Assembly: GCA_037146995.1 (NCBI GenBank)
Contig: JBAWWA010000006.1
Span: forward strand, 15,031-79,030
DNA length: 64,000 nt
Direction of reading: 5' to 3'
DNA from: a bacterium
GTDB lineage: Bacteria > Patescibacteriota > Patescibacteriia > Patescibacteriales > GWE2-39-37
Below are positions 7,295 through 44,912 of this stretch, one piece after another. How positions within the stretch are numbered: position 1 is the first letter of the stretch; each line of letters starts with the position of its first letter. The notes beneath the pieces were generated by a model. It ran no database searches. It had not been told where the DNA came from and was given only the letters and a program-made list of their open reading frames with translations. The position numbers and the translations under genes are program-made.

Positions 7295-7298
7295 CAAA

Positions 7299-8156: not shown

Positions 8157-8164
8157 CACATAAT

Positions 8165-8191: not shown

Positions 8192-8321
8192 ATTATGTGT
8201 TGGAAAGTGAGGGTGCAGAATTTTGGCTTGATTATAGGCGAAAATTCACATCGATTTAAACAGGGAGTAAGATTATTTTAAAAGGTGGCTTTTATACGTG
8301 ACAGTCGGAGGGTTTAACCCT

Positions 8322-8345
8322 TTCGAATCCCTCCCTCTCCGCACA
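8322..8345 (+). repeat. orphan duplicate of the tRNA-Ser 3' end (T-loop plus acceptor 3' strand)
   Basis: The 24 nt TTCGAATCCCTCCCTCTCCGCACA are identical to 8137-8160. GAGGGTT is also present just upstream, with a 7-nt insertion. The copy is followed by its own hairpin plus T-run (about 8350-8385). Confidence 0.8.
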
Positions 8346-8437
8346 TATAAAAAAAATCACTAATTTAGTATTGGTGATTTTTTGTTAAAAATAATAACAT
8401 GTATTAGGATGGTGGTCTTTTGTTTAAAACTCCAATA

Positions 8438-8466
8438 TTGTCATTAAGCGCAATTTGTGACATAAT
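8438..8466 (+). promoter_or_regulatory. sigma70-like promoter giving a leaderless or near-leaderless mRNA for ORF 8473
   Basis: TTGTCA, 17 nt, CATAAT, then 6 nt to the ATG at 8473. No Shine-Dalgarno site. Confidence 0.5.
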
Positions 8467-8472
8467 AAAATC

Positions 8473-8979: not shown

Positions 8980-9073
8980 TTAAATACTAGCAGAGCAATA
9001 AAAAAGGCAGTTGCCTCTTTTTTATTGTAAATTATTTCGGTATTTTGTTAGGTAAATACGGTAGGATAAATTA

Positions 9074-9145
9074 GCACTCGTCGTTCAACGGATAGGACGC
9101 AAGCTTGCGGAGCTTGCAATCTAGGTTCGATTCCTAGCGAGTGCA
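9074..9145 (+). tRNA. tRNA-Arg (anticodon GCG)
   Basis: Hand-folded. Acceptor GCACTCG/CGAGTGC, anticodon stem CAAGC/GCTTG, loop TTGCGGA, T-arm CTAGG-TTCGATT-CCTAG, 72 nt. CCA is not encoded. Confidence 0.75.
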
Positions 9146-9152
9146 CAATTAT

Positions 9153-9178
9153 AAAAACCACCCTTATGGGTGGTTTTT
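9153..9178 (+). terminator. rho-independent terminator after tRNA-Arg
   Basis: AAAAACCACCC-TTAT-GGGTGGTTTTT hairpin with a T-run. Confidence 0.7.
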
Positions 9179-9197
9179 GGTTATTTAGGGCGTTTTA

Positions 9198-9229
9198 TGG
9201 TAAAATATACATATCCACAGGCTGGATAT
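9198..9229 (+). promoter_or_regulatory. candidate ftsK promoter (extended -10) with an overlapping palindromic operator containing a DnaA-box-like core
   Basis: TGgTAAAAT at 9198-9206. Four nt later comes ATATCCA-CAGGC-TGGATAT (9211-9229), a perfect 7-bp inverted repeat. TATCCACA lies at 9212-9219. Confidence 0.4.
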
Positions 9230-9296
9230 TTTTAGCTATTGAATCATGAAAATGAATTAAAATAGTCATTAAAAAGGTAAATTTAATATTTTTAAT

Positions 9297-28305: not shown

Positions 28306-30114
28306 ATGAATATCAGAAATGTAGCTATTATCGCCCATGTAGACCATGGCAAAACCACTTTAGTTGATGCTTTGTTGCGTAGTGCTAAGGTAACTTTAAA
28401 TAAAGAACAGGCCTCTGGTGACTTGATCATGGATTCCAATGAGCTTGAACGTGAGCGTGGTATTACCATTTTCTCTAAAAATGCCTCAGTTGTTTATAAC
28501 GATTTGAAGATTAATATTATTGATACTCCCGGTCATGCTGATTTCGGCGGTGAGGTGGAGCGCGTTTTGTCGATGGCCGATGGTTGTTTGTTATTAGTAG
28601 ATGCCAAAGAGGGACCAATGCCACAAACTAGATTTGTTTTAAAAAAGGCGCTTGAAATGAAACACAAGGTGATTGTGGTTATTAATAAAATCGACAAACC
28701 CGATGCTCGTCCGCAGTACGTATTGGACAAGACTTTTGATTTGTTTTTAGAGTTGGGAGCCGATGATGAAACGGCAGAATTTCCGGTTATCTACGCCTCT
28801 GCTAAAAATGCCCTAGCTGGTCTTGAGCCAACTCTTGAATCAATGACCGACATTACTCCTATTTTTGAATTGATTGAAAAAGAAATTCCTGAACCAAAGA
28901 TGGACGCCTCAAAACCGCTTCAGTTAATGGTTACAACCGTCGCTGCTGATAATTATAAAGGCAGAATTGCTATCGGTCGCATTTTAGCTGGTACTATCAA
29001 AGCAGCGCAGGAAGTGATTCATTTTAATCGTGAAGGCTTGCAAAAGAAGTGTCGCATCTCTTCGCTTATGACTTTTGCTGGCTTGGGTCGTGTTGAAGCG
29101 ACTGAAGCTTTTGCAGGTGACATTGTGGCTATTGCCGGTATTTCTGATGTGACCATTGGGGAAACAATCGCTGACTTAGTTGACCCAGTCCAATTGCCGT
29201 TATTATCTATTGAGGAGCCAACCGTCAAAATGACATTTAGTGTTAATGATTCACCCTTTGCTGGTAAAGAAGGTAAATTTACAACTTCACGTCAAATTCA
29301 GGAGCGTCTAGCTAAAGAACTTGAGACTGATATGGCGATGAAAATCGACATGTCTGAAGGTACAAGCTGGGTAGTGTCTGGTCGTGGTGAACTTCATTTA
29401 GCCATTTTGCTCGAACGTATGCGTCGCGAAGGTTTCGAAATTCAGGTTTCTCGGCCTCAGGTGGTAGAAAAGATGATTGACGGCAAAAAGCAAGTACCTT
29501 TCGAGCGCGCCTTTATTGAGGTGCCAGAAGAATACTCTGGTTCAGTGATTCAGAAGCTAGGTAGTCGCAATGGCTTGATGTTAGAGATGCGTCTCGAATC
29601 TGGCACGGCCTTTTTGGAATTCGTTATCCCGACTCGTGGCTTGTTTGGTTATCGCGCTGAGTTTTTGGTTGATACGCGCGGACTAGGTATTATGAATACG
29701 ATGTTTGAAAAATTCGATACTGATCCAGGTAATTGGAAAGAGCGTGACCAGGGGTCACTCGTCGCTCATGAGACTGGCGCCTCAAATCTTTATGGTTTGA
29801 CCAATGTTCAGGACCGTGGAGTTTTATTTATCGGTCCGGCCGTGCAAGTTTACAAAGGCCAGGTTATTGGTCAGCATCAACGTCCTGGAGATTTGCGCGT
29901 TAACGTTTGTAAAGCTAAGGAACTTTCAAATATGCGCTCTAAGGGCGATGGTCCTGCCGAACATTTTAATCAACCAAAGCTCATGGAACTAGAAGATGCT
30001 TTGGAATATATTGGTGATGATGAATTGGTAGAAATTACGCCAATCAATGTCCGTATTCGCAAGATGATTCTTGACGAACAAGATGCAAGACGAAAAGCTC
30101 TAGGTATAAAATAA
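28306..30114 (+). CDS. typA: translational GTPase TypA/BipA
   Basis: G1 AHVDHGKTT, G3 DTPGHADFGGE, G4 NKID. 602 aa with EF-G-like domains and the TypA C-terminal domain. Confidence 0.95.
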   Translation: MNIRNVAIIAHVDHGKTTLVDALLRSAKVTLNKEQASGDLIMDSNELERERGITIFSKNASVVYNDLKINIIDTPGHADFGGEVERVLSMADGCLLLVDAKEGPMPQTRFVLKKALEMKHKVIVVINKIDKPDARPQYVLDKTFDLFLELGADDETAEFPVIYASAKNALAGLEPTLESMTDITPIFELIEKEIPEPKMDASKPLQLMVTTVAADNYKGRIAIGRILAGTIKAAQEVIHFNREGLQKKCRISSLMTFAGLGRVEATEAFAGDIVAIAGISDVTIGETIADLVDPVQLPLLSIEEPTVKMTFSVNDSPFAGKEGKFTTSRQIQERLAKELETDMAMKIDMSEGTSWVVSGRGELHLAILLERMRREGFEIQVSRPQVVEKMIDGKKQVPFERAFIEVPEEYSGSVIQKLGSRNGLMLEMRLESGTAFLEFVIPTRGLFGYRAEFLVDTRGLGIMNTMFEKFDTDPGNWKERDQGSLVAHETGASNLYGLTNVQDRGVLFIGPAVQVYKGQVIGQHQRPGDLRVNVCKAKELSNMRSKGDGPAEHFNQPKLMELEDALEYIGDDELVEITPINVRIRKMILDEQDARRKALGIK

Positions 30115-30362: not shown

Positions 30363-30388
30363 AACCCCCTTCATTAAGGGGGTTTTTA
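30363..30388 (+). terminator. rho-independent terminator
   Basis: AACCCCCTT-CATT-AAGGGGGTT followed by TTT. Confidence 0.75.
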
Positions 30389-30485
30389 TTTATTATTGAA
30401 TTGTCTTATTCTCAAATCGAGCTCTGATGTTGTTAGTTTTTAGAATTGTATGAGGGTGCATTGTCTACACCAACCTATCTCATTG

Positions 30486-30494
30486 TGTTATAAT
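30486..30494 (+). promoter_or_regulatory. extended -10 promoter element giving a leaderless mRNA for ORF 30501
   Basis: TGtTATAAT, then 6 nt (TAAAAA) to the ATG at 30501. No SD and no good -35. Confidence 0.45.
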
Positions 30495-30500
30495 TAAAAA

Positions 30501-30990
30501 ATGCAAAAACAAGTTTTTAAATTAATATTTTTGATATCTCTCTTTTTAATTTTGCCTAATCTTACTCAAGCTGCACCCATTCCAGTACTAAATTTCTCGG
30601 ACATTGATTCAGGTCCAAAAGTCGGCAACACAGACGGAGTCGGATCGGGCGCTATTGTAACTATCTGGGGTAATTATCTTGGATCGGCAACGGGAACCTC
30701 AAAAGTCTATGTTGGCAATGTCGAGGCCACTGCTATTTATTATTGGAAAAATGCTGATGGTCAACTGCCGGGAGGACCAGCTGAACTTTACAGTTATCAT
30801 AAGATGCAAGAGATTGCTTTTGCCATTCCAGCTAGCGCACCAGATGGCTTGACTACTATTAAAGTTGTGGTTAATGGCATTGAAACCAACACACTGCCTT
30901 TTACGGTTAGATCTGGAAATATATATTTCATCAAAGCTGGAGGCAATGACACCACCGGCAATGGCAGTTGGGGAAATGCCTGGGCGACGT
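30501..30990 (+). repeat. direct repeat copy 1 (5' region of beta-helix paralogs)
   Basis: About 480-490 nt align colinearly with 35261-35750. By eye roughly nine of ten positions are identical (not computed). Confidence 0.8.
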
Positions 30991-32291
30991 TGCAGTCAAC
31001 GTTTATCGGCGGAAATAATAAACTTACAGCAGGTGACATTGTTTATAGTGTTGGGGTTGGTACAAATGTTGGTCTTGAGATCGGTAAAAATCTTGGAATT
31101 AATGGTACTTTGGCACAGCCAATTTCGATCGCTCAATATCCTGGAACTAAAATTAATATTTCTGGCAACACTAACATTGCCAATACTATTTACTATTATA
31201 ATACTAATGAATTTTGGAATTGGTCAAAAATTTCTGTTACCACAACAGTTTCAGCTTTTGCGTTGTCTAGAAAAAATCGAATTGTTGGCGTAGAAATAAC
31301 TGGGCCGACGGTTTATGGGGGTTATTCTGGTGCCCTGGGTGGTGGGTGTAATGGCGATATAAATTGTTTTGGAACTGAGGGGGGCAAATACTTAGGTTTG
31401 TACATTCATAATTATGGAACTGATAATGGTGTTCCGTCAATTGGTAATATTGGAACTGATCCTTCAACTTGTCCGTATTCAAACCCTGCCTGTAAAAGCA
31501 CGTGGGATCGCTTTCAGCATCTTTTTTATATTTCTAATCGGTCTGGTGGGCCACGAGAAGCCTATGAAATTGGCTGGAATAATTTAATAGATAATCCAAT
31601 TGCACCAGGTATTCATATTTATGATCAGAGTCCTTGTGGTGATTGGACTGGTACAATGGAAATTCATAATAATGTTATTAAGAATCAGCGTGGCTCAGCA
31701 ATTAATGTTGATTTGAGCAATTGCACGCCACGACTTTTGGTTCCATTTAGGATATATAATAATATCATAATTAATGATGCAACTGTTGCTTATGGTGGAA
31801 GGGGTATCACTATAATCGCCCCTGGTAGGGCGGAAACTCCCTTGGATCAAATTCAGGTTTACAATAATACTGTTTATGGTCAAATTCAGTCCAGTAATTT
31901 TGTCAATTTTCCAACTAATCAAGTTTTTAAAAATAATATCTTTGTGGATACACAAAATGTTGATTTTTTTGAGCAATATGGAGGAAGTCCTTTAGTCAGT
32001 TCAAATAATTTATTTTATAGTTTGTTTGCCAAGGCAGCACCATCTTGGACTGGCACTGGATCAATTATGGCTAATCCGCTTTTTATTGATGCTGCAAATT
32101 TTGACTTTCCCTTGCAGCCAACAAGTCCAGCAAAAACTGCTGGCTCAGATGCTACGCTTGCAGTGGCGCCCACTGATTTCTATGGTCAATCACGCCCAGC
32201 TGGTAGTGTCAGTATGGGTGCGATTCAATATGTTTCAGCTGTGGTTGACACTATTGCTCCTGCTGCACCAACTGGTCTTGACGTAATATGA
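30501..32291 (+). CDS. secreted IPT/TIG + right-handed parallel beta-helix protein (short paralog)
   Basis: Signal peptide ...FLILPNLTQA/AP. Ig-like IPT segment (AIVTIWGNYLG...VYVGNVEA...TTIKVVVNGIETNTLPFTV). N-rich beta-helix turns (IHNNVIKN, IYNNIIIND, VYNNTVYG, FKNNIFVD). C-terminal cap NPLFIDAANFDFPLQPTSPAKTAG...FYGQSRP...MGAIQY. Tail APAAPTGLDVI-stop. Confidence 0.7.
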   Translation: MQKQVFKLIFLISLFLILPNLTQAAPIPVLNFSDIDSGPKVGNTDGVGSGAIVTIWGNYLGSATGTSKVYVGNVEATAIYYWKNADGQLPGGPAELYSYHKMQEIAFAIPASAPDGLTTIKVVVNGIETNTLPFTVRSGNIYFIKAGGNDTTGNGSWGNAWATLQSTFIGGNNKLTAGDIVYSVGVGTNVGLEIGKNLGINGTLAQPISIAQYPGTKINISGNTNIANTIYYYNTNEFWNWSKISVTTTVSAFALSRKNRIVGVEITGPTVYGGYSGALGGGCNGDINCFGTEGGKYLGLYIHNYGTDNGVPSIGNIGTDPSTCPYSNPACKSTWDRFQHLFYISNRSGGPREAYEIGWNNLIDNPIAPGIHIYDQSPCGDWTGTMEIHNNVIKNQRGSAINVDLSNCTPRLLVPFRIYNNIIINDATVAYGGRGITIIAPGRAETPLDQIQVYNNTVYGQIQSSNFVNFPTNQVFKNNIFVDTQNVDFFEQYGGSPLVSSNNLFYSLFAKAAPSWTGTGSIMANPLFIDAANFDFPLQPTSPAKTAGSDATLAVAPTDFYGQSRPAGSVSMGAIQYVSAVVDTIAPAAPTGLDVI

Positions 32292-32298
32292 TATAAAA

Positions 32299-35253
32299 AT
32301 GGAAAATAAAATTCTAAAAATATTTTTACTACTTTTTTTCTTTTTAATCCTGCCTAATTTTACACAAGCAGCCTTAAGTGTCCCGCTTACCATTCAAGAA
32401 ACACTTCCTGCTGGAGTTACTGGCTTAGATAGAGCTAGTGAAAATTTTTCATCTGGAATTCCCTTGGCGCAGGATAGTGGAATTACCAATGTCAATCAGC
32501 TTGGACTCACGAATTCAACAGCTGCTCAATTTAGAGCCCTGGCTTGGTGGCCAAACGGAAATATTAAATGGGTTTTAGTCGATGGGCAATCTTCAATATC
32601 AGCTGGAGGTACAGACACAACAAAAGCCTTGACGGATGGCACAGGAAACTTTGGAGGATCAGATTTGGCAACCGACAATGGTGCAAATATTTCAATTAAT
32701 ACTGGAAATGCTCAATTTGTCATTAGAAAATCGGGCTTCAATATTTTTGATAATGTGGTTGTTGATGGACAGGAATTAGTAATAAGTGGAAACGCTGGCA
32801 GAATTTCTGCAGTGGGTCTGGATGGTTTAACTTATACGTCAATAAATGATGCGCATACTCAAGTTGCGATTGAAGAAAATGGTCCAGTTAGGTCTGTAAT
32901 TAAGGTGATGGGTGCACTTGAGAATTCTTCCAATGCGAGATTAATGGATTATACTTTGAGAATTCACTTCTATAAAGATAGTTCAAAAGTTAAAAGTTTT
33001 GTCACACTTAGAAATGCCAGTGCTGTTGCTAAAACAGACGTGGCTTTCAATAACCTTGAAGTTGTCGTTCCACTTTCATTGTCGGGACAAAAAACTGTTT
33101 TATTTTCTCGTAAAACAGATACTATTTCGCGCACGCTTGGAACTGGTGAAAGTGCTTACATGTATCAGGGATATAATACTACAGTGCCAGTGATTAATAA
33201 TTTGGATTGTTATTATTGGCATATTCCAATTCCTGGGACTTGTAATGGATCAACATTGACTCCAGACATAAATTATCTTGGCATGGCGATTAAGGTGGGA
33301 AATGAATGGGTAAATAGTGTTGGGACGACCACGGACTCCACACAAGGGTTTGCTGATATGAGTATCGGTGGACGAGGAATTTCAGTTGCAAGAAAGTGGA
33401 TGTCAGCCTATTGGCCTGCTGGTTTCGAATTTAATGATAATGGTGAGACAAGTATTGAAATTTATTCCAAGAACAATGGGGCTGAAAAAGTTGGACTGGG
33501 TTTTGGTCGTCATTTTTCGAGTGAAATTATGTGGGATTTTCACGTGACATCTTCTGATGGTAAGAGTGCGCTCTATGCTTTGCAATACCCCTTACTCGCT
33601 CGTGCAAATCTCGATTATTATGGAGCAACTAAAAGTATTTTTGGGCAAGATGAATTTGTGAGCGAAGCGCAACAAAACACTTTTTTCACAAATTTACATG
33701 TTGGTCATGCTGCGCCAACATATTTGATTAATCCAAGCATGCAGGTGATCAGATCGTGGCAATGGGATAACACAGGTGGTGCTAATCAAACTGACACACC
33801 CTTGCAATGGTTGACTGACTATTTGCGCACTGGAAGGGGTGGATTTTTTCAACTTGGATCACAACGAACTGTTTGGACTATGGAGAATGCTATCGGTATA
33901 GCTGATGATTATGTTGGTTTTTATCATTTAGATGCCAGTATTCTTCATCCTTTTGACAATACGAGTAATTACCCGGCATTTCCTGGTGGGACAATGAGCA
34001 GGATAAAAACCGGTTTTGCTGACACTGAGCATGCGAATTTTAGCTCAATACCATTTTATTATTTTTTAACAGGCGATGAGAATATTAAAGAAGGCTATCT
34101 GAAAGCGGGGGAGCGTTGGAAAAAAGCCAATGACATGGGCTATTATGCTGTGCCAAATATAAACACACCACTTCGACCAATAGGAAAGCAATTTCGCAAT
34201 ATGGCCTTGGCCTATGAATTTTCATGTCAAATTGGTGCGTGTAATAATTCTTGGAAAACCACAATTGAAAATGCGTTAACGACTTTTTTGGACATGCGAG
34301 ATAATCCGTCTCAGGGATGGGGAACTGACGGAACTCCAGTTGGTAGAAATATGGAAAGAGGTTATGTTTGGTGGGACAAGGCTGTTGGAAGTCAGGGTCA
34401 GACCTCCACGCCATCAACCAGACTTATTCATGAGTTTTATCAGACGCAGATTCTAACCGAGTGTATGTATCAGGTTTGGCGAGTTATGCGAGATACAGAC
34501 TGGAATTACAGTAAAATGCTTTACTTTCAAGATTTTCTAACTGGCCTTTCTCAATTTATTTTTAATGAATTTGCTCAGCCAGTAACAGATAGCGGTCCAC
34601 CAGCTGCTTTTTATGGCTATCCAGTTGATTATCAATGGGCATTCTACAAGGAATACGCCATCGATCAATTGCAATCAACTATAAACCCCTTAAATGCTGC
34701 AGATAAAATACGCATGAGTGTGCATGACGTTTCACGTGCTGCGCGCTGGGGCTATGAGCATACTGGCGATTCTTCTATTTTGGATAAGGGCAATTCTTTT
34801 CTTTGGGGTATTCAATCTGAAACTGGTTGCACAGCTTATCCTTCAGAATTACAAGATCAGACACTGATGTATGCATATTTTAATAAAGCAACAATTCCAA
34901 CATGGCAAACTATTGTCCCCAATGTTGTTGACAATGGGGGTGGATCGTATACATTAAATTGGACCGTTCCTGCTGGCGCAAAAGAATATCAAATAAAATA
35001 CGCAGACAAACCAATTGTCGAGTGGCTTGGTTTTGACAAAAACACTAGGGCATATCAATATGATCCTGCAAATTACACAGCATTTTTTGCTGCTAACAAT
35101 ATTACAAATAATCCAGTGCCAGTTACTGCTGGAACAGTCCAGAGTATAACACTTACGGGATTGCCAAGTAATCAGAATTTTTCCATGAAGTTCTTGTCTG
35201 ACATTCCAGATATTATTGCTCCAAATGCACCAAATGGTTTGAGCGTGATATAA
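32299..35253 (+). CDS. secreted 984-aa protein of unknown function (possibly polysaccharide-active; unassigned)
   Basis: Signal peptide ...FLILPNFTQA/AL, related to those of its neighbours. W/Y-rich central region. FN3-like C-terminal part (YTLNWTVPAGAKEYQIKY). Tail APNAPNGLSVI-stop. 7-nt gaps on both sides. Confidence 0.65.
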   Translation: MENKILKIFLLLFFFLILPNFTQAALSVPLTIQETLPAGVTGLDRASENFSSGIPLAQDSGITNVNQLGLTNSTAAQFRALAWWPNGNIKWVLVDGQSSISAGGTDTTKALTDGTGNFGGSDLATDNGANISINTGNAQFVIRKSGFNIFDNVVVDGQELVISGNAGRISAVGLDGLTYTSINDAHTQVAIEENGPVRSVIKVMGALENSSNARLMDYTLRIHFYKDSSKVKSFVTLRNASAVAKTDVAFNNLEVVVPLSLSGQKTVLFSRKTDTISRTLGTGESAYMYQGYNTTVPVINNLDCYYWHIPIPGTCNGSTLTPDINYLGMAIKVGNEWVNSVGTTTDSTQGFADMSIGGRGISVARKWMSAYWPAGFEFNDNGETSIEIYSKNNGAEKVGLGFGRHFSSEIMWDFHVTSSDGKSALYALQYPLLARANLDYYGATKSIFGQDEFVSEAQQNTFFTNLHVGHAAPTYLINPSMQVIRSWQWDNTGGANQTDTPLQWLTDYLRTGRGGFFQLGSQRTVWTMENAIGIADDYVGFYHLDASILHPFDNTSNYPAFPGGTMSRIKTGFADTEHANFSSIPFYYFLTGDENIKEGYLKAGERWKKANDMGYYAVPNINTPLRPIGKQFRNMALAYEFSCQIGACNNSWKTTIENALTTFLDMRDNPSQGWGTDGTPVGRNMERGYVWWDKAVGSQGQTSTPSTRLIHEFYQTQILTECMYQVWRVMRDTDWNYSKMLYFQDFLTGLSQFIFNEFAQPVTDSGPPAAFYGYPVDYQWAFYKEYAIDQLQSTINPLNAADKIRMSVHDVSRAARWGYEHTGDSSILDKGNSFLWGIQSETGCTAYPSELQDQTLMYAYFNKATIPTWQTIVPNVVDNGGGSYTLNWTVPAGAKEYQIKYADKPIVEWLGFDKNTRAYQYDPANYTAFFAANNITNNPVPVTAGTVQSITLTGLPSNQNFSMKFLSDIPDIIAPNAPNGLSVI

Positions 35254-35260
35254 TATATAA

Positions 35261-35750
35261 ATGCAAAAACAAGTCTTAAAATTAATACTTTTCCTATCAT
35301 TCTTTTTAATCTTGCCTAATCTTACTCAAGCTGCACCCATTCCAGTATTAAATTTCTCCGACATTGAATCAGGTCCAAAAGTCGGCAACACAGATGGAGT
35401 TGGGTCAGGAGCTATTGTAACCATTTGGGGAAATTATCTTGGATCAGCAACGGGAGCTTCAAAAGTCTATGTTGGCAATGTTGAAGCAACTGCTATTTAT
35501 TATTGGAAAAATGCTGATGGTCAACTTCCATCTGGTCCAGCAGACCTATATTCATCCCACAAAATGCAAGAGATTGCTTTTGCCATTCCAGCCACTGCAC
35601 CAGATGGCTTAACCACCATTAAAGTTGTGGTTAATGGCATTGAAACTAACGCACTACCTTTTACGGTGAGAGCTGGAAACATTTATTTCATCAAAGCTGG
35701 AGGCAATGACACCACCGGCAATGGCAGTTGGGGAAATGCGTGGGGGGCGT
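35261..35750 (+). repeat. direct repeat copy 2 (5' region of beta-helix paralogs)
   Basis: See copy 1. The two copies flank the 984-aa gene, 4.76 kb apart. Confidence 0.8.
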
Positions 35751-38677
35751 TGCAAAATGTTTTCAATGGCGGTAATGGAAAATTAATTTCAGGTGACATC
35801 GTTTACACTGTTGGAGTTGGATCAACTGCTGGATTGTCAGTGGGATTTGGCGGTGCAATTAAGGCCACGCAATTAAATCCAATTGCATTAGTTTTATATC
35901 CAAACACGGCCTTGTTGATGTCTGGACATGCGGCAGGTAATAATTATGGTTACGTTATTAATAACTGGTATAGTTCAAATAGCTTGTATTCAAGTGAATA
36001 TATTAATTTTTCTAAAATAAAAATCTTAGCTGAAGGTGATGGCACTGAATCAAGTTCAGGCGTGCATACTTTTAAAGGTAATAGAATTGTTGGTCTTGAA
36101 ATTACTGGTCCAACTGTATATGGAGGATATGGCGGAGCAATTTCTGGTTCAGGTGGGTTTGGCGGTGCTGGTGCAGGTGAAAATGCTGGTGGTGGAAAAT
36201 ATCTTGGAATCTATATGCATGACTATGGCTGGAAATCAACAACGGCGGGAGTTGGTAATTATGGCTGGATTTTTGTTAATAATGCTAGTGCTTGGACTGG
36301 ACCAAGTTGTGTAAACAGAAACCCAACAGCATGCGCTACTAATTGCATAGCTGGAGCGGATTGCACAACTGAACCCGGTGGCTGCACCTATGCCAATGTT
36401 AAATGTAAATATAGCGTGGATGGTTTTCAGCATCTTTACTATATTTCAGATCGTTCACCGGATGCTATTAATGGTTATGAGATTGGTTGGAATAATTTAA
36501 TTAACAATCCAATCTTATCAGGCATACATATTTATGATCAGGGTCCTAATATCGGAGGCTGGAACACGCCAATTATTATTCATGATAACTTAGTTAAAAA
36601 TCAAAGAGCTAGTTCCATTGATGTGGCATATCCGAAAGCGGATGTTGGTCCAAATGCTGGAACAGCTGCGCCAATCTATATTTATAATAATATTATTGTT
36701 AATGATGAAGGGGGTATTGATAATGGTTGGGCTTTGAACATTCAAGGCTCTGGAGATGCTAAAGTTTATAATAATACGGTGCATGGATTTCGCTATATTA
36801 ACATTATGCGACCTGCAACTTCTGATTATCGCAATAATTTGATGGTAGAAGCTGATTTGCCAATTGATTATCATTATTATATTTACGACACGCCAACCAC
36901 TAAAAGTAATAATCTTTTTTACGGCACTCATTCATCTCCCATGCCAGCTTGGTTTTCTGCTGGAGCGGGGGATTTAAACACAGATCCTCTTTTTACTAAT
37001 GCTGCAAGTTATGATTTTTCCTTGCAAGCAACAAGTCCTGCAAAAACTGCAGGAACAGATGTCACACTTGCAACTGCTCCAACTGATTTCTATGGTCAAC
37101 CACGTCCAGCTGGCAGTGTCAGTATGGGTGCTATTCAATATATTAATAATGACAAGCTCTTGCAACAATCTGATCTGGAATATTTAGGAGCTTTTCGTGT
37201 GCCCAAGGGAAAATATGGTGCTTCTACTGGGTCAGCTTCCTTGAGCTATGGCGGCGGTCCTATTGCCTATAATAAAATAAATGATTCTTTGTTTATGTAT
37301 GGACAAGGAAAATTGCTTTTAGAGATATCCATTCCCCAAGTTTTTAATACCACTAATATGGCCGCACTTAGCACAGCCAATTTGCTTCAACCCTCGGTGG
37401 ATATTGCGGATGGAAATTGGAATAATGTCGGAACTGCATATGCGCCGATAGGTAACGGTGCCGTGCCACGAGGGCTATTGCTTTGGAATGGCAAATTATT
37501 AGGCTCTGATTCTGGTGTTTATGACGCCGACAATCAACAGATTTATTCGCATTTTCTAGCCAATGCAAATTGGAGTAGTAGCACGGGATTCTCGGGATTT
37601 TACAAACTGAGCACGGAGCCGATTGCTGCGATTACTAATAGGGCGGGTTTTGTGGCTGGTTTTATGGGTGATATTCCTGTTTCATGGCAGAGTGGGCTTG
37701 GCGGAACAGTGCTGACTGGTGAAAAAACCCTTAGTATTATTGGAAGGTCATCCTTTGGCCCAGCAGCCTTTGCCTTTAATCCCTCAGACATTGGAACTGT
37801 TGATCCAATTTCAACTCAAGGATTAATGTATTATCCCGCAACGCATCCAACATTGGGTCAATATTCTGTTGATAGTATAAATCCAGCCTTTAATAGAGCG
37901 ACTCAAATTAGTGGGCTGGTTTTTCCAGAAGGAAGTCGTAGTGTTCTTTATTTTGGATCGACTGGTCTTGGCTCTTCTTGTTATGGCGAAGGTACGGCCA
38001 CGGCAACCTTAGATAATACTTTTGTTAGCGAAGTTGTAGCCAGTAGTGCCTCAACCTTGACTATAGATACATCGTCCAAGGTGTTGCAGATTCCCGCTGG
38101 TCTCAATACTACTGATGGCGCGTATGTAATGTTGAAACCAACAGCCAATTTGACAAATCATGTTTATGGCATAATTACGGCTTACAACGGAACCACTCTA
38201 AGTTTAGATGTTGTAACAGGCGGTATTCTGGGTTCAGGAACATATAGCGACTGGGAAGTGCATCTAGCGACAAGCAGTGGTCTTAATTCCGTAAGATATT
38301 GTTATGATCCAACTAGTAGTAGCAAAGGTGACCATGCTTATCCGTATGCTTATTTTGTCTGGGCTTACGATGCTAATGATTTTTTGAAGGTTAAAAATGG
38401 TGATATAAATCAAGCCACCGGGTTAGCCTATAAGCCATGGGAAATTGTACCTTACGCCACTTGGCAACTGGATTTTCCATTTGCTATTGAGTACAAAGAT
38501 ATTTTAGGTGCAGCTTATGATTCAAGTACACAGAGGCTCTTTTTGTCAGAAAAATACGGAGATAGACCGGCTGGTTCGGAGCCATATCCTCTAGTTCAAG
38601 TTTATCACTTGAATTTGAATCCGGTGGTCTCGGATAAAGCTGCTCCGCAAGCACCTAGTGGCTTAGAGGTTAGATAA
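35261..38677 (+). CDS. secreted IPT/TIG + parallel beta-helix protein with an about 500-aa extra C-terminal region (long paralog)
   Basis: The first about 165 aa are nearly identical to ORF 30501. Beta-helix turns IHDNLVKN, IYNNIIVND, VYNNTVHG, and the same cap motif DPLFTNAASYDFSLQATSPAKTAG. Tail APQAPSGLEVR-stop. Confidence 0.7.
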   Translation: MQKQVLKLILFLSFFLILPNLTQAAPIPVLNFSDIESGPKVGNTDGVGSGAIVTIWGNYLGSATGASKVYVGNVEATAIYYWKNADGQLPSGPADLYSSHKMQEIAFAIPATAPDGLTTIKVVVNGIETNALPFTVRAGNIYFIKAGGNDTTGNGSWGNAWGALQNVFNGGNGKLISGDIVYTVGVGSTAGLSVGFGGAIKATQLNPIALVLYPNTALLMSGHAAGNNYGYVINNWYSSNSLYSSEYINFSKIKILAEGDGTESSSGVHTFKGNRIVGLEITGPTVYGGYGGAISGSGGFGGAGAGENAGGGKYLGIYMHDYGWKSTTAGVGNYGWIFVNNASAWTGPSCVNRNPTACATNCIAGADCTTEPGGCTYANVKCKYSVDGFQHLYYISDRSPDAINGYEIGWNNLINNPILSGIHIYDQGPNIGGWNTPIIIHDNLVKNQRASSIDVAYPKADVGPNAGTAAPIYIYNNIIVNDEGGIDNGWALNIQGSGDAKVYNNTVHGFRYINIMRPATSDYRNNLMVEADLPIDYHYYIYDTPTTKSNNLFYGTHSSPMPAWFSAGAGDLNTDPLFTNAASYDFSLQATSPAKTAGTDVTLATAPTDFYGQPRPAGSVSMGAIQYINNDKLLQQSDLEYLGAFRVPKGKYGASTGSASLSYGGGPIAYNKINDSLFMYGQGKLLLEISIPQVFNTTNMAALSTANLLQPSVDIADGNWNNVGTAYAPIGNGAVPRGLLLWNGKLLGSDSGVYDADNQQIYSHFLANANWSSSTGFSGFYKLSTEPIAAITNRAGFVAGFMGDIPVSWQSGLGGTVLTGEKTLSIIGRSSFGPAAFAFNPSDIGTVDPISTQGLMYYPATHPTLGQYSVDSINPAFNRATQISGLVFPEGSRSVLYFGSTGLGSSCYGEGTATATLDNTFVSEVVASSASTLTIDTSSKVLQIPAGLNTTDGAYVMLKPTANLTNHVYGIITAYNGTTLSLDVVTGGILGSGTYSDWEVHLATSSGLNSVRYCYDPTSSSKGDHAYPYAYFVWAYDANDFLKVKNGDINQATGLAYKPWEIVPYATWQLDFPFAIEYKDILGAAYDSSTQRLFLSEKYGDRPAGSEPYPLVQVYHLNLNPVVSDKAAPQAPSGLEVR

Positions 38678-41879: not shown

Positions 41880-44800
41880 ATGCCTAATGGCATTCAATCA
41901 ATAGAAGATTTAATTCGGGCGTCTCGCGGACAAATCAAGGATGATCAAAGCGCTCAGGCGAAATTTGCAGCCAAACAGATTCAAATTAGCGTCAAAGACA
42001 AAGAAAAATCAGCAGCTATAAAAGCTGCTAGTCTGGGGTTGCCTTATATGGATCTTTTTGCCTTTCCTATGAGTCCGGAAGGCCTGGTTTTGATACCCGA
42101 AGAGCAATCAATCGCTCAATCGACCGTCTGTTTTTATTTTGATGGCGGCAGCTTTAGGGTAGCCACCACTAATCCTACCGAGCAAACTCTAGAGATTATC
42201 AGTACGATTGAAGCCAAAACTTTTGCTAAAGGTCAGTTATATTTTATTTCTGAACGTAGTTTGAAGTACGCTCTGGATATGTATAAAATTATTCCTAAGG
42301 TTGATAAGACGGCTTCGGGAGTCAAGATTGAAGCGGCGGATCTCGAGCGTTTCAAGGAGCAAATTGTTGATTATCGCAGTTTGAATGAAATGATAAATAC
42401 GGTCAGCATCAGTGATATTGTAACTTTGTTGATTGCCACGGCCTTAAAAGTGGGGACGAGTGATATTCATATTGAGGCCGAGGAACGTGGAACGGTGGTT
42501 AGGTTACGTATTGATGGTATTTTGCAGGAGGCAGCGGTGATAGATAGAGAAAAATGGCCGCGGATTATTTCTCGCATGAAGTTACTTGCTAAGGTAAAAT
42601 TGAATGTAACAGGCAAGCCGCAAGATGGTCGCTATAATATTGAAATGCCGGATGAAAAGATTGCCGTGCGCTGTTCTTTTTTGCCGACAAGTTTTGGTGA
42701 GTCGGTAGTAATGCGTTTACTCAAATCCAGCTCTGTTGGTCTACCCTTTGAGGAGTTAGGCATGTCGGCGCGCGCCTTTGAGATTTTGGGTAAGGAAATT
42801 GAAAAACCCAATGGTTTAATTTTAACTACCGGTCCGACAGGGTCTGGCAAGACAACGACATTGTATGCGATTTTAAATAAAATCAATCAACCAGGGGTCA
42901 AAATTATTACGTTAGAGGATCCGGTTGAATTTCAGTTACCAGGTGTTAATCAAAGTCAGGTCGATGCTAGTAAGAATTATACTTTCGCCAATGGTTTGCG
43001 ATCGATTTTGCGCCAAGACCCTGACGTGGTGATGGTGGGTGAAATTCGTGATCTTGAAACAGCTGAAATATCGGTTCAAGCGGCTTTGACTGGCCATTTG
43101 GTGTTATCAACATTGCATACCAATGACGCCTCTGGGGTTATTCCACGTCTGATCGACATGGGGGTGAAGCCATATTTTTTGACGCCATCTATTAATGCCG
43201 TCATTGGTCAACGCTTGGTGCGCAAGCTTTGTAATAGCTGTAAGGTTGAAGATTTAGTTAGTGAAGAGGATTCGGAACGGGTTAATAAGATATTGGCAGT
43301 TATTTCCCCCAACGCCGGCGTTGATATACCGGCTGTCATGCCAAAATTGTACAAAGTCGGTCCAGGTTGTGATAAGTGTAAAAATAGTGGCTTTAAGGGG
43401 CGTGTTGGTATTTATGAGATATTTACGATGTCAGATGATCTCAAACAGCTAACCGCCGATGGTGCGCCAGCTTTTAAAATCATGCAAAAAGCTATAGAGA
43501 ATGGCATGGTGACTATGCTTCAAGACGGCGTCTTGAAAGCGATGGCGGGTCAAACTAGTTTAGAGGAGATCTACCGTGTTATTGGCAAATTTGACTATAT
43601 CGATGCATTGTATGATGTGGTCGTCTCTAATACTGTAGGTCGAGGCGTCAAGATTAAGGCTGATATTTATGAGCAGGCCTTAGAGTTGTCAAAAAATCTC
43701 ATTAATCTTGGTTCAGCCCTCGAGGCGACGCCAACCAAGCAAATGCTTGATTTGATTTTTGCTGTGGCTATTCGCGTTGAGGCGGGTGATGTACATATTG
43801 ATCCGACTGAGCATGGCGTAAAAGTGCGCTTTCGTATTGATGGCGTGATGAATGATATAGTTAAGCTTGGTAAGGAGCATTACATTCCCTTGATGTCGAA
43901 TATCAAGAGTCTGGCTGGTTTTTCGATGAGCGAAAAAAGACCGACTTACGATGGACGCTTTTCAATTACCGTGGCTGAAAAAAATATGGATTGTCGATTA
44001 TCTATTATCTCTGGTGGCTATGGAGAGACGGCAGTTATTCGCGTTTTAGCCAATGAGGCGGCAAATCTGGATATGGAAAAATTAGGCATTAACGACGCGG
44101 CCTTAATGGCACTAAAGCGTTCGATCAAGAAAACTAAAGGCATGATCGTGACCACTGGTCCGACTGGCTCGGGTAAAACGACTACACTTTATAGTGTTTT
44201 AAATAAGCTAAATAGCTCTTACGTCAAGATTATTACTATTGAAGACCCGATCGAGTATCATCTCGAGGGTATTATGCAGACTCAGATTGATACGGCAGGT
44301 GGCTATACTTTTGCTGCTGCTTTACGCTCTTTGATGCGCCAAAATCCTAACGTCATTATGGTAGGTGAGATTCGCGATGATGAAACGGCTAAAACCGCTG
44401 TTGAAGCGGCCATGACTGGTCATCTCATGCTCTCGACCATCCATGCCAATAGTGCGGCCGGTGCGATTGCGCGTTTTGTTGGTTTGGGCGTCGAGCGTCA
44501 GGCTTTAGCGAGTTCGCTTGAGTGTGTGGTCGGTCAGCGGTTAGTGCGTCGAATTTGCACACATTGCAAAGTCTCAGATGAATTATCGAGTGAGACAAAA
44601 ACCGAGCTCGAAGTGTATTTGACACAAATGAGAGCTCAGGGTACCTTTGATTTGCCGGCTGAATTGAAATTTTTCAAAGGTGCTGGTTGTGCGGAGTGTG
44701 GCGGTATTGGCTACAAAGGCAGGGTTGGCTTGTATGAGGTGATTGAGATGTCACCAGATATTCAAAAAATCATTCAACAAGAAAATGTCACTGACCATGA

Positions 44801-44912
44801 TATCGAAGAGGCAGCCATGAAAAATGGCACGGTTTTAATGTTGCAATACGGCATCATGAAGGCACTCTCTGGAGAGACTTCAATAAGTGAGGTCTTTAGG
44901 ACGGCAAAATAA
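41880..44912 (+). CDS. tandem-fused double GspE/PilB-family secretion ATPase (two complete ATPase units in one 1010-aa ORF)
   Basis: Unit 1 has a T2SSE_N/MshEN-like N-terminus, Walker A GPTGSGKTTT (nt 42831-42860), ITLEDPVEF, VVMVGEIRD, TGHLVLSTLHTND and CNSC...CDKC. Unit 2 has Walker A GPTGSGKTTT (nt 44157-44186), ITIEDPIEY, VIMVGEIRD, TGHLMLSTIHAN and CTHC...CAEC. The junction is near nt 43590, with no stop or frameshift. Confidence 0.8.
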   Translation: MPNGIQSIEDLIRASRGQIKDDQSAQAKFAAKQIQISVKDKEKSAAIKAASLGLPYMDLFAFPMSPEGLVLIPEEQSIAQSTVCFYFDGGSFRVATTNPTEQTLEIISTIEAKTFAKGQLYFISERSLKYALDMYKIIPKVDKTASGVKIEAADLERFKEQIVDYRSLNEMINTVSISDIVTLLIATALKVGTSDIHIEAEERGTVVRLRIDGILQEAAVIDREKWPRIISRMKLLAKVKLNVTGKPQDGRYNIEMPDEKIAVRCSFLPTSFGESVVMRLLKSSSVGLPFEELGMSARAFEILGKEIEKPNGLILTTGPTGSGKTTTLYAILNKINQPGVKIITLEDPVEFQLPGVNQSQVDASKNYTFANGLRSILRQDPDVVMVGEIRDLETAEISVQAALTGHLVLSTLHTNDASGVIPRLIDMGVKPYFLTPSINAVIGQRLVRKLCNSCKVEDLVSEEDSERVNKILAVISPNAGVDIPAVMPKLYKVGPGCDKCKNSGFKGRVGIYEIFTMSDDLKQLTADGAPAFKIMQKAIENGMVTMLQDGVLKAMAGQTSLEEIYRVIGKFDYIDALYDVVVSNTVGRGVKIKADIYEQALELSKNLINLGSALEATPTKQMLDLIFAVAIRVEAGDVHIDPTEHGVKVRFRIDGVMNDIVKLGKEHYIPLMSNIKSLAGFSMSEKRPTYDGRFSITVAEKNMDCRLSIISGGYGETAVIRVLANEAANLDMEKLGINDAALMALKRSIKKTKGMIVTTGPTGSGKTTTLYSVLNKLNSSYVKIITIEDPIEYHLEGIMQTQIDTAGGYTFAAALRSLMRQNPNVIMVGEIRDDETAKTAVEAAMTGHLMLSTIHANSAAGAIARFVGLGVERQALASSLECVVGQRLVRRICTHCKVSDELSSETKTELEVYLTQMRAQGTFDLPAELKFFKGAGCAECGGIGYKGRVGLYEVIEMSPDIQKIIQQENVTDHDIEEAAMKNGTVLMLQYGIMKALSGETSISEVFRTAK

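What the first reader, a model, noticed from the sequence alone, without database searches (positions are those of the whole stretch)
30501..38677. Three back-to-back secreted proteins sharing both a signal peptide and a C-terminal tail AP-x-AP-x-GL-x-V-[IR]-stop
The genes are separated by only 7 nt. All three begin with a related signal peptide (FFLILPN[LF]TQAA). All three end with D-x-[IA]-AP-x-AP-x-GL-x-V-[IR] directly before the stop: DTIAPAAPTGLDVI, DIIAPNAPNGLSVI and DKAAPQAPSGLEVR. Sequences of this type normally form the linker and first beta-strand of a fibronectin-III domain in bacterial carbohydrate-active enzymes. Here the proteins stop right after it. It may be a short sorting or docking tag, for example a strand donated to a partner. 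It may instead be a scar of a modular cassette system in which catalytic bodies are swapped between constant ends.
Basis: seen in the sequence. Interest (0 to 1): 0.6.

Follow-up and report, generated by a model that had tools for sequence, protein, structure and literature searches.

The report
Free FN3 strand as docking tag
Three neighbouring secreted sugar-cutting enzymes each end in the same 14-residue tail, which is the first strand of a fibronectin-III domain without the rest of the domain, and related genomes suggest it plugs into anchor proteins whose fibronectin-III domain lacks exactly that strand.

Summary
The three genes (30501-32291, 32299-35253, 35261-38677) are 7 nt apart. They share a signal peptide and end in D-x-x-A-P-x-A-P-x-G-L-x-V-x-stop.

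Across 1.38 Mb of related loci translated in six frames, the core motif occurs 72 times, 63 of them exactly one residue before a stop. It sits on 98 unique proteins with several unrelated bodies, in arrays of up to eight genes. Most are from Patescibacteria, with some in other phyla.

AlphaFold2 models both tested bodies confidently and leaves the tail disordered. The tail is homologous to the FN3 linker plus strand A, but it prefers G-L-x-V where intact FN3 domains in the same loci have N-L-x-A.

Related loci encode FN3 domains that begin at strand B directly after a signal peptide. These are fused to a dockerin (next to a cohesin gene), a peptidoglycan-binding domain or Ig-repeat stalks. Some relatives carry body, full FN3 and dockerin or Ig domain in one chain.

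Best reading, at about 0.5 confidence: a split FN3 docking system that works by strand donation. No partner gene lies on this window's contig, and no complex was modelled.

The parts
30363..30384 (+). Terminator-like hairpin downstream of the TypA-like gene (28306-30114). It marks the upstream boundary of the three-gene unit.
   Evidence: 9-bp stem with 5 G-C pairs, followed by a T run.
30468..30500 (+). Decayed copy of the tail-stop-7nt junction upstream of orf1. In the tail's frame it reads ...STPTYLIVL-TAA-TTAAAAA-ATG.
   Evidence: Repeat D1 (87% over 300 nt) starts 33 nt before both the orf1 and orf3 start codons. 21 of 33 nt are identical to each real junction, and the in-frame stop is followed by the same 7-nt spacing.
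30501..32291 (+). orf1, 596 aa: signal peptide (aa 1-24), IPT/TIG domain (aa ~29-136), right-handed beta-helix body (to aa ~576), linker and tail.
   Evidence: TIG, DUF5123, choice-of-anchor Q. (AF2 pLDDT 90.5). (weak fold matches to PL6 alginate lyase, chondroitinase B and LnbX).
32247..32288 (+). orf1 tail DTIAPAAPTGLDVI (aa 583-596), followed by TGA.
   Evidence: residues 577-596 have pLDDT about 50 and no secondary structure.
32292..32298 (+). 7-nt spacer TATAAAA between orf1 and orf2.
32299..35253 (+). orf2, 984 aa: signal peptide (aa 1-24), PL26-like exo-rhamnogalacturonan-lyase fold, own FN3-like domain (aa ~868-967), linker and tail.
   Evidence: PcRGLX_2nd. (AF2 pLDDT 88.4). (5xq3/5xqo, E about 1e-22, TM about 0.52).
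35209..35250 (+). orf2 tail DIIAPNAPNGLSVI (aa 971-984), followed by TAA.
   Evidence: residues about 968-984 have pLDDT falling from 49 to 37 and are coil. The preceding FN3-like domain ends confidently at strand 960-967.
35254..35260 (+). 7-nt spacer TATATAA between orf2 and orf3.
35261..38677 (+). orf3, 1138 aa. It is a paralog of orf1 over aa 1-628 (signal peptide, TIG, beta-helix) and has an extra C-terminal region of about 500 aa with unknown fold, then the tail.
   Evidence: (54% identity to orf1 over 639 columns). (no PDB sequence match for aa 640-1138).
38633..38674 (+). orf3 tail DKAAPQAPSGLEVR (aa 1125-1138), followed by TAA.
   Evidence: Orthologs in L001 and L005 end the same way (...NPVVSDTTAPAAPTSLSVI...NPVIGDIISPSAPANLSVQ).

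Best explanation
The three genes form one operon of Sec-exported polysaccharide-cleaving enzymes from a Patescibacteria-like (Moranbacteria-related) bacterium. Two are TIG + beta-helix proteins and one is a PL26-like lyase.

Each ends in a 14-residue modular tag, D-T/I-T/I-[AP]-P-x-A-P-x-G-L-x-V-x-COOH. This is the inter-domain linker plus beta-strand A of a fibronectin-III domain, without the rest of the domain.

Proposed mechanism:
- After export the tag stays unfolded.
- It inserts as the missing edge strand into an FN3 'socket' on a separate protein. The socket's FN3 domain begins at strand B directly after its signal peptide.
- The Leu and Val of the tag fill the core positions that strand A normally supplies.
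- Sockets are fused to anchoring modules: a dockerin that would bind a neighbouring cohesin protein, a peptidoglycan-binding domain, a membrane helix, or Ig-repeat stalks. Many different enzymes can therefore share a few anchors and be held at the cell surface.

What is shown: the tag's conservation, its fixed position at the C-terminus, its independence from the enzyme body, its predicted disorder, its homology to FN3 strand A, the existence and genomic proximity of strand-A-less FN3 modules in relatives, and fused single-chain versions.

What is inferred: that tag and socket bind each other, and that this window's genome has a socket.
For: (1) Fixed position. 63 of 72 core-motif hits in 1.38 Mb of six-frame translation end exactly one residue before a stop. 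All three hits in the window do so.

(2) Independence from the body. The same tag ends orthologs of orf1 (about 25 of 120) and of the unrelated orf2 family (about 20 of 120, including Binatia, Limnocylindrales and Deltaproteobacteria). It also ends PL14-like, GH16 and He_PIG-containing proteins. Arrays reach 4-8 genes (L001, L003, L006, L060, L109, L113).

(3) Not part of the protein's own fold. The AF2 models of orf1 and orf2 have pLDDT 90.5 and 88.4 and pTM 0.91, while the last 17-20 residues have pLDDT 37-51 and are coil.

(4) Homology to FN3 strand A. In P0159 the same motif continues into a full FN3, with the Pfam fn3 profile matched from position 2.

(5) Complementary sockets. FN3 domains that start at fn3 profile positions 12-16 directly after a signal peptide or TM helix lie next to or inside tail arrays:
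- L003 and L090: TM-FN3, then FN3-dockerin, then a cohesin protein.
- L109: FN3 x3 plus PG_binding_1, E 7e-15, inside a five-gene array.
- L076, L007, L008, L012: FN3 plus Big_7 repeats.
- L002 and L063.
Internal FN3 domains in the same loci keep the A-strand motif.

(6) Reverse test. Starting from the small TM-FN3 family (114 Patescibacteria proteins), the module TM-FN3 / FN3-dockerin / cohesin recurs (L130-L132). Tail genes lie within 10 kb in 3 of 4 independent socket loci. One genome (Moranbacteria GW2011_GWE1_36_7) has the tail-bearing orf1 homolog P0019 and the socket P0313 on different contigs.

(7) Fusion/fission pairs. P0159 is body + full FN3 + dockerin. L101 is PL14-like + full FN3 + Big_7. 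The alignment places the break between strand A and strand B.

(8) Orthologs in sister lineages carry a dockerin at the same place (P0014, P0038, P0061, P0125).

(9) The tail is specialised. G is at -5 in 82 of 98 tails and V/I at -2 in 87 of 98. Nine intact A strands have N/S/T and A/G at those positions.

(10) Variable tail positions are more alike within a locus than between loci: 0.476 against 0.261, with 0 of 5000 permutations reaching the observed value.
Against: - No tag-socket complex was modelled or measured. Only single chains could be predicted here.
- No strand-A-less FN3, dockerin or cohesin gene lies on the window's 71-79-kb contig. None was seen within the available flanks of several other arrays (L001, L005, L006, L060, L061, L113).
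- The co-location evidence rests on a handful of lineages. The loci were gathered through homologs, so they are not fully independent.
- Part of the small TM-FN3 family has an RD[LI]x[VI]xG segment before strand B that could act as its own strand A.
- A donated strand does not obviously require the chain to stop exactly one residue after the Val.
- Within-locus tail similarity could reflect paralogy or gene conversion and not a shared receptor.
- The sample of intact A strands is small: 9 strands, three from one protein.
Confidence: 0.5

Rival explanations
1. The tail is a real C-terminal recognition tag, but it is read by something other than an FN3 socket. One candidate is the HlyD/ABC/MacB-type exporter that flanks the arrays in the closest relatives, which could move Sec-exported cargo across the wall. 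Others are a C-terminal-peptide-binding protease or another unseen receptor.
For: - In L001, L005 and L113 the arrays sit between the two MacB-type permease genes of a HlyD/ABC/MacB operon, with different cargo in each.
- The strict end one residue after Val suggests that the free C-terminus itself is read.
- No FN3 socket lies near the window's array.
Against: - The MacB context occurs only in one syntenic group. It is absent from the window and from L003, L006, L060, L061 and L109.
- MacB-type pumps are known for small substrates, not 600-1100-aa folded beta-helix proteins (general knowledge, not tested here).
- The last residue is variable and mostly polar (R, Q, N, E), unlike classical PDZ ligands with a hydrophobic last residue.
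- This reading does not explain the fused FN3 versions or why the tag is exactly an FN3 strand A.
Confidence: 0.2
2. The tail is an evolutionary scar. FN3 linkers are recombination points for domain shuffling, and the junction (tail end + stop + short spacer + signal peptide) spreads by duplication and gene conversion between tandem genes. The tail would then persist without a function of its own.
For: - The junction is a 126-nt direct repeat present three times, and a decayed copy lies upstream of orf1.
- orf1 and orf3 are 87% identical at the DNA level over the first 300 nt including the junction, but only 54% identical as proteins overall.
- Syntenic sites hold different cargo.
- Tails are homogenised within loci.
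Against: - A neutral remnant would drift in length and sequence. Instead the stop position is fixed in 63 of 72 cases across distant phyla and unrelated bodies.
- Six positions carry more than 3 bits of information each, including the unsearched Asp at -14.
- The tail's residue preferences differ from intact linkers.
- Arrays with long spacers (L060, L003) keep the tail without the 7-nt junction.
Confidence: 0.1
3. The tail acts within or between the enzymes themselves. It could be a last strand packing on the enzyme's own domain (for example the missing last strand of orf2's FN3-like domain), or it could mediate oligomerisation of the enzymes.
For: - orf2's own FN3-like domain matches the FN3 profile only to about position 70 of 88, so it seems to lack a last strand.
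- Beta-helix enzymes often oligomerise (general knowledge, not tested here).
Against: - AF2 leaves the tail unstructured at low confidence in both orf1 and orf2 while the rest is confident.
- The TIG domain of orf1 already has seven strands.
- The same tail follows many unrelated C-terminal domains.
- Many orf2 homologs end directly after that FN3-like domain with no tail.
Confidence: 0.05
4. The tail is a Pro-rich spacer that is glycosylated or sticks directly to wall or capsule polymers, with no protein partner.
For: - The Thr/Pro-rich D-T-T-P-P-S-A-P composition resembles glycosylated linkers (the resemblance is from general knowledge).
- The enzymes act on polysaccharides.
Against: - The most conserved part is the G-L-x-V strand at the very end, not the Thr/Pro part.
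- orf2 and orf3 lack the D-T-T triplet.
- This reading does not explain the fixed stop position or the fused and split FN3 pairs.
Confidence: 0.05

Closest known systems
Donor-strand complementation in chaperone-usher pili (and strand exchange in type V pili)
   Same: An Ig-like beta-sandwich that lacks one edge strand is completed by a short strand from another polypeptide. The donor segment is unstructured until it is inserted. This is a comparison from established knowledge, not a test made here.
   Different: - Here the fold is FN3 and the missing strand is the first one (A), not the last (G).
- The donor sits at the extreme C-terminus of enzymes, not at the N-terminus of pilins.
- No chaperone or usher genes are present.
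- The product would be a 1:1 enzyme-anchor pair, not a polymer.
- Binding has not been shown.
Cohesin-dockerin tethering (cellulosome-type assemblies)
   Same: - Many different secreted carbohydrate-active enzymes carry one common C-terminal module that docks them to shared anchoring proteins.
- Orthologs of orf1 and orf2 carry a dockerin at the same position.
- The putative sockets are fused to a dockerin and lie next to a cohesin gene.
   Different: - The tag is 14 residues, not a calcium-binding module of about 60 residues.
- The window proteins have no dockerin.
- The tag would act one step upstream, joining the enzyme to a separate FN3-dockerin adaptor.
C-terminal sorting signals (LPXTG/sortase, PEP-CTERM/exosortase, T9SS C-terminal domain)
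   Same: - The signal is C-terminal, independent of the protein family, and found on sets of secreted proteins.
- It follows a 'choice-of-anchor Q'-type region in orf1 and orf3.
- Exosortase genes lie near tail genes in L002, L032 and L063.
   Different: - There is no hydrophobic helix or basic end after the motif.
- There is no LPXTG or PEP signature.
- The tail is far shorter than a T9SS domain.
- The protein simply stops one residue after the Val.
SpyTag/SpyCatcher-type split Ig-like domains (engineered)
   Same: A short peptide that is one strand of an Ig-like domain docks into the remainder of the domain and tethers any cargo fused to it. This is from general knowledge.
   Different: - Those systems are engineered from a CnaB2 domain and are locked by an isopeptide bond.
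- Here the split would be natural, in FN3, and presumably non-covalent.

Membership tests
Fibronectin type III domain (Pfam PF00041) | A complete seven-strand sandwich follows the linker and strand A. | tested here: not met
   The proteins stop one residue after the strand-A Val. Pfam finds no fn3 at the tails. The next gene starts 7 nt later with a signal peptide.
Fibronectin type III domain (Pfam PF00041) | The tail is homologous to the FN3 linker plus strand A. | tested here: met
   In P0159, L101 and the L060 GH16 protein the same motif runs into an FN3 matched from profile position 2.
Donor-strand complementation systems | An acceptor domain lacks one strand. | tested here: met
   This is met in related loci only. 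There, FN3 domains start at fn3 profile positions 12-16 directly after a signal peptide or TM helix. No such gene lies on the window's contig.
Donor-strand complementation systems | The donor strand is not part of its own protein's fold. | tested here: met
   In the AF2 models of orf1 and orf2 the tail has pLDDT 37-51 and is coil, while the bodies have pLDDT 88-90.
Donor-strand complementation systems | Donor and acceptor form a physical complex. | not testable with these tools
   Only single-chain prediction was available. This needs AlphaFold-Multimer or binding assays.
Cellulosome-type cohesin-dockerin system | The enzyme carries a dockerin module. | tested here: not met
   The three window proteins have no Dockerin_1 hit. 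Orthologs P0038, P0125 and P0159 do.
Cellulosome-type cohesin-dockerin system | Cohesin-bearing scaffold genes are present in the genome. | tested here: inconclusive
   Cohesin genes follow the FN3-dockerin genes in L090, L130/L131 and L132, and a homolog follows in L003. None lies on the window's contig. The rest of the genome was not available.
Sortase (LPXTG) or exosortase (PEP-CTERM) substrates | A signature motif is followed by a hydrophobic helix and a basic end. | tested here: not met
   Nothing follows the tail, and it contains no LPXTG or PEP motif.
T9SS C-terminal sorting domain | A folded C-terminal beta-sandwich of about 70-100 residues. | tested here: not met
   The tail is 14 residues and disordered. 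There is no Por_Secre_tail hit.
PL26 exo-rhamnogalacturonan lyase (orf2 body) | The overall fold of PcRGLX. | tested here: met
   Foldseek matches 5xq3/5xqo with E about 1e-22 and TM about 0.52. Pfam finds PcRGLX_2nd with E 1e-11. Catalytic residues and substrate were not examined.
Polysaccharide lyase/hydrolase beta-helix (orf1 and orf3 bodies) | A right-handed beta-helix fold with a lyase-type active site. | tested here: inconclusive
   The model has beta-helix secondary structure. The fold matches to PL6 lyases, chondroitinase B and LnbX are weak, with TM about 0.3. The active site was not examined.

The most novel reading that the evidence does not exclude
A natural 'plug and socket' built from a split fibronectin-III domain. 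A 14-residue C-terminal strand-A tag on dozens of secreted enzymes per lineage inserts into strand-A-less FN3 modules carried by a few anchor or adaptor proteins (dockerin adaptor plus cohesin scaffold, peptidoglycan-binding stalk, membrane stub, Ig-repeat stalk). This would give tiny-genome Patescibacteria, and some other phyla, a minimal modular way to display changeable enzyme sets on the cell surface.
Probability: 0.45. Interest if true: 0.85.

Novelty: new variant of a known kind. Interest (0 to 1): 0.72.

Why it matters
If the tag works by strand donation, it would be a new natural protein-docking principle for secreted enzymes. It would be far smaller than a dockerin and would use the commonest bacterial linker domain.

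It would explain three things:
- How Patescibacteria, with genomes of about 1 Mb, keep varied sets of polysaccharide-cleaving enzymes at their surface.
- Why arrays of unrelated enzymes share constant ends.
- Why many genomes hold small proteins annotated only as 'fibronectin type III domain protein'.

It would give annotators a simple rule for a class of surface-tethered proteins: the C-terminal sequence D-T-T-P-P-x-A-P-x-G-L-x-V-x followed by the stop.

It could also supply a compact, genetically encodable peptide/domain pair for protein engineering.

Even if the mechanism proves different, the tag itself is a widespread, strongly constrained C-terminal signal. My searches of the held paper library found no description of it.

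Tried and rejected
- Partner in the window. I searched with phmmer using five socket proteins, with an iterated local FN3 HMM, and with Pfam on essentially all ORFs of at least 150 aa. I also fetched the rest of the source contig. The only FN3-like domain found is orf2's own.
- Intramolecular roles. The idea that orf1's TIG domain lacks a strand was dropped because the model has seven strands. The idea that orf2's tail is the last strand of its own FN3-like domain was dropped because the tail is low-confidence coil.
- Alternative genetic code. Read-through of orf1's TGA would add only six residues before the next stop and would overlap orf2's start. Long ORFs throughout the window fit table 11.
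- NCBIfam gave only sub-threshold choice-of-anchor Q hits and nothing for the tail.
A three-sequence alignment worked.
- PDB sequence searches for orf2 and for the orf3 C-terminal half found nothing.
- Five literature searches found no description of such a tag.
- BLAST single-linkage clustering of the tail-bearing bodies merged families through shared domains. It is not a reliable count of families, so I rely on the Pfam assignments.
- The promoter scan was uninformative in this AT-rich DNA.


Full report
**1. What is in the window**

Three + strand ORFs lie back to back: 30501-32291 (596 aa), 32299-35253 (984 aa) and 35261-38677 (1138 aa). The spacers are exactly 7 nt, and each gene is shifted +1 in frame relative to the one before.

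A terminator-like hairpin at 30363-30384 separates them from the upstream TypA-like gene. An FtsH-like gene follows at 38831.

All three proteins begin with a closely related signal peptide...FLILPN[LF]TQA|A. They end in DTIAPAAPTGLDVI, DIIAPNAPNGLSVI and DKAAPQAPSGLEVR, each directly before a stop. The relaxed motif P.AP.[GN]L occurs only these three times in all six frames of the 64-kb window.

**2. The protein bodies**

- orf1 and orf3 are paralogs, 54% identical over about 630 residues. Each has an IPT/TIG domain and a right-handed beta-helix that ends in a choice-of-anchor Q/DUF5123-type region.
- The orf1 model weakly resembles PL6 alginate lyases, chondroitinase B and LnbX.
- orf3 has about 500 extra residues with no sequence match to any solved structure.
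- orf2 is unrelated to the other two. Its model matches the PL26 exo-rhamnogalacturonan lyase PcRGLX (E about 1e-22, TM about 0.52; Pfam PcRGLX_2nd). It ends in its own FN3-like domain.

These are secreted enzymes that most likely cleave polysaccharides.

The genomic context fits a Patescibacteria (CPR) genome: T4SS-like genes, FtsK, GyrA, a PilB-like ATPase and giant ORFs without Pfam hits. So do the closest named homologs, which are from Moranbacteria.

**3. The tail is conserved, fixed in position and independent of the body**

- About 25 of the 120 best orf1 homologs (34-66% identity) end in [AP]P.AP.G[LIVM].[VI]x, with the first Pro exactly 10 residues from the end.
- About 20 of the 120 best homologs of the unrelated orf2 do the same. 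They include proteins from Binatia, Limnocylindrales and Deltaproteobacteria.
- I ran a census of two sets of loci gathered in different ways. The first has 60 loci (966 kb), obtained through the orf1 and orf2 families, and includes this window. The second has 63 metagenome loci (413 kb), obtained through a PL14-like family. The 10-residue core motif occurs 31 and 41 times. In 25 and 38 cases exactly one residue lies between the motif and the stop. Only 5 and 2 occurrences are internal.
- From 98 unique tail-bearing proteins the unit is D-T/I-T/I-[AP]-P-x-A-P-x-G-L-x-V-x-COOH. Asp at -14 is present in 86 of 98 although it was not searched for. The preceding linker is variable.
- The tag ends TIG/beta-helix, PL26-like, PL14-like, GH16, He_PIG-containing and other proteins. 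They are often in tandem arrays: four genes in L001 and L003, six in L006, eight in L060, five each in L109 and L113.

These results rule out chance. They also rule out the simple pseudogene or truncation reading.

**4. What the tail is**

It is homologous to the FN3 inter-domain linker plus strand A. In P0159, an orf2 homolog, the same motif continues as ...DTTPPTTPTNLTPTPISPSQINLSWTAS... into an FN3 matched from Pfam profile position 2, followed by a dockerin. The same is seen in L101 (PL14-like + full FN3 + Big_7) and in the L060 GH16 protein.

The tail is nevertheless not just a cut linker. It has G at -5 in 82 of 98 cases and V or I at -2 in 87 of 98. Nine intact A strands from the same loci have N/S/T and A/G at those positions. 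That sample is small.

**5. The tail is free of its own protein**

AlphaFold2 with family alignments gives confident models for both proteins: orf1 with pLDDT 90.5 and orf2 with pLDDT 88.4, both with pTM 0.91. The last 17-20 residues drop to pLDDT 37-51 and have no secondary structure.

orf1's TIG domain is already complete, with seven strands. orf2's FN3-like domain ends confidently at strand 960-967 without using the tail. An intramolecular role is therefore unlikely.

**6. Complementary 'sockets' in related genomes**

In L003, a 921-kb CPR contig, four tail genes are followed at once by two small genes.
- The first encodes a 121-aa protein with a TM helix and an FN3 that starts at fn3 profile position 15.
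- The second encodes a 200-aa protein. Its predicted mature N-terminus (VQA|AGSATVSW) is FN3 strand B, at profile position 13, and it ends in a dockerin.

The diverged locus L090 has the same order and adds a cohesin protein (E 1.6e-9). The gene at the equivalent place in L003 is 42% identical to that cohesin protein (E 1e-45).

In L109 a protein sits inside a five-gene tail array. It has a signal peptide, an FN3 without strand A, two full FN3 domains and a PG_binding_1 domain (E 7e-15).

In lineages with two membranes, the orf1 and PL14-like families carry variant short tails (...PPNATGSGHQ...GNIKGNWK...KKMNATIITP). These lie near proteins built as signal peptide, FN3 from strand B, then Big_7 repeats (L076, L007, L008, L012).

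Internal FN3 domains in these same loci keep the A-strand motif. The FN3 domains that directly follow a signal peptide do not. An alignment of fused and split forms puts the break between strand A and strand B.

**7. Reverse test**

The small TM-FN3 protein defines a family of 114 Patescibacteria proteins of about 120-145 aa. None of the 106 members with a recognisable TM helix and strand B has a P..[GN]L.V motif between the two.

Their neighbourhoods again show TM-FN3, then FN3-dockerin, then a cohesin protein (L130/L131, L132). L130/L131 also has two tail genes 6-9 kb upstream. Tail genes therefore lie within 10 kb in three of four independent socket loci.

Moranbacteria GW2011_GWE1_36_7 has the tail-bearing orf1 homolog P0019 and the socket P0313 on different contigs. 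Adjacency is therefore not required. That matters for this window, where no socket is seen.

**8. Mechanism proposed**

The enzymes are exported by Sec and the tag stays unfolded. It then inserts beside strand B of a socket FN3 and supplies the Leu and Val that strand A normally gives to the core. The enzyme thereby acquires the socket's anchor: a dockerin to a cohesin scaffold, peptidoglycan binding, a membrane helix or an Ig stalk.

Three other observations fit this:
- Orthologs in sister lineages carry a dockerin at the same position.
- Fused single-chain forms exist.
- Variable tail positions are more alike within a locus than between loci: 0.476 against 0.261, with 0 of 5000 permutations reaching the observed value. 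Gene conversion could also produce this.

The fixed stop would make sense if the tag's free carboxylate abuts the socket's own N-terminus, that is, if it marks a nick in what is otherwise one chain. This point is inference only.

I put this mechanism at about 0.5. That the tail is a functional modular tag of some kind I put at about 0.85-0.9.

**9. Weak points**

- No complex could be predicted with the tools available.
- No socket, cohesin or dockerin gene lies on the window's 71-79-kb contig or in the flanks of several other arrays.
- Some TM-FN3 proteins may carry their own strand-A-like segment.
- The loci were gathered through homologs and are not fully independent.
- The closest relatives of this array (L001, L005, L113) sit between the two MacB-type permease genes of a HlyD/ABC/MacB operon. 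This keeps open a different receptor or export route.

**10. The cassette idea**

As a description of how the arrays evolve, it has support.
- Tail + stop + 7 nt + signal peptide is a 126-nt repeat unit found three times.
- The orf1/orf3 duplication is 87% identical over 300 nt and starts 33 nt upstream of both start codons.
- Upstream of orf1 there is a decayed junction...STPTYLIVL-TAA-7 nt-ATG.
- Syntenic relatives hold different cargo at one site.

As an explanation of why the tail exists, it fails, because of the constraint on the tail described in section 3.

**11. Comparison with known systems, and novelty**

In mechanism the nearest known case is donor-strand complementation in pili. 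In function the nearest is cohesin-dockerin tethering. In genomic behaviour the nearest is the family of C-terminal sorting signals.

The window proteins fail the membership tests for dockerin, for sortase or exosortase substrates and for the T9SS C-terminal domain. The tail is only one strand of an FN3.

Five searches of the held literature found no description of such a tag.

I rate it a new variant of a known kind, with interest 0.72. The decisive computation is a multimer prediction of tails with sockets. The decisive experiment is peptide-domain binding.

Noticed in passing
window 30468-30500: A decayed copy of the tail-stop-7nt junction lies upstream of orf1 (...STPTYLIVL-TAA-TTAAAAA-ATG). 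21 of 33 nt are identical to each real junction. It suggests that a former upstream tail gene was lost, or that a duplication spanned the junction.
   Followed up: partly
window 30468-30767 vs 35228-35527: orf1 and orf3 are 87% identical at the DNA level over the first 300 nt, including 33 nt upstream of the start codon, but only 54% identical as proteins overall. This points to a partial recent duplication or gene conversion at the 5' end.
   Followed up: partly
L001 11-11781; L005 3508-14489; L113 4386-16252: In the closest relatives, tail-gene arrays with different cargo (beta-helix, PL26-like, He_PIG-containing, five PL14-like) sit between the two MacB-type permease genes of a HlyD/ABC-ATPase/MacB operon. 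In the window the array instead lies between TypA-like and FtsH-like genes.
   Followed up: partly
window 3601-6644 (and L065 upstream): There are T4SS-like genes: PrgI-family, TraC-like, and a VirB4/TraG-type ATPase. On the source contig they are preceded by a 1637-aa ORF.
   Followed up: no
window 41880-44912: A 1010-aa protein appears to be two fused GspE/PilB-type secretion ATPase halves. The Walker A motif GPTGSGKTTTLY occurs twice in the translation. It was not scanned against Pfam.
   Followed up: no
window 12211-17670 and 47399-54346: There are two giant ORFs. The 1819-aa ORF has no Pfam hit. The 2315-aa ORF has only a DUF2341 hit. They may be surface proteins and were not examined as possible anchors.
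   Followed up: no
window 1-64000: Every large ORF that looks like a gene is on the + strand, and GC skew is positive in every 2-kb bin. This is consistent with one long leading-strand stretch.
   Followed up: no
L076 394-1434; L008 10001-11857; L012 9872-11680; L037 and L054; P0034-P0037, P0045, P0069: Other lineages carry different short Pro-rich-then-beta tails on the same enzyme families (...PPNATGSGH[QL], ...APKNVSGTVVGQ, ...GNIKGNWK, ...KPNPPSNFTIQ). The same variant is shared between unrelated bodies within a lineage. These may be lineage-specific versions of the same tag.
   Followed up: partly
P0259, P0263, P0268, P0275, P0282 and others (small TM-FN3 family): Part of the family has RD[LI]x[VI]xG between the TM helix and strand B. 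This could be a built-in strand A, so these members may not need a donated strand.
   Followed up: no
L032 (Marinobacter koreensis DSM 17924) 3255-11770; L002/L063: In proteobacterial and Binatia genomes the orf1 and orf2 families lie in exopolysaccharide loci with exosortase EpsH, a PEP-CTERM protein (seen in L032), glycosyltransferases and Wzy-type genes. There they probably process the cell's own polymer.
   Followed up: no
window 60166-61173: A protein with a WxL-interacting-protein peptidoglycan-binding domain (WxLIP_PGBD) lies next to an FGE-sulfatase-like gene. It is another possible cell-surface assembly component.
   Followed up: no
L130 1104-6875: Three AAA_14/DUF4143 ATPase genes and an AbiEii gene lie between and beside the tail genes and the socket module. 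This looks like a variable, defence-like or mobile stretch.
   Followed up: no
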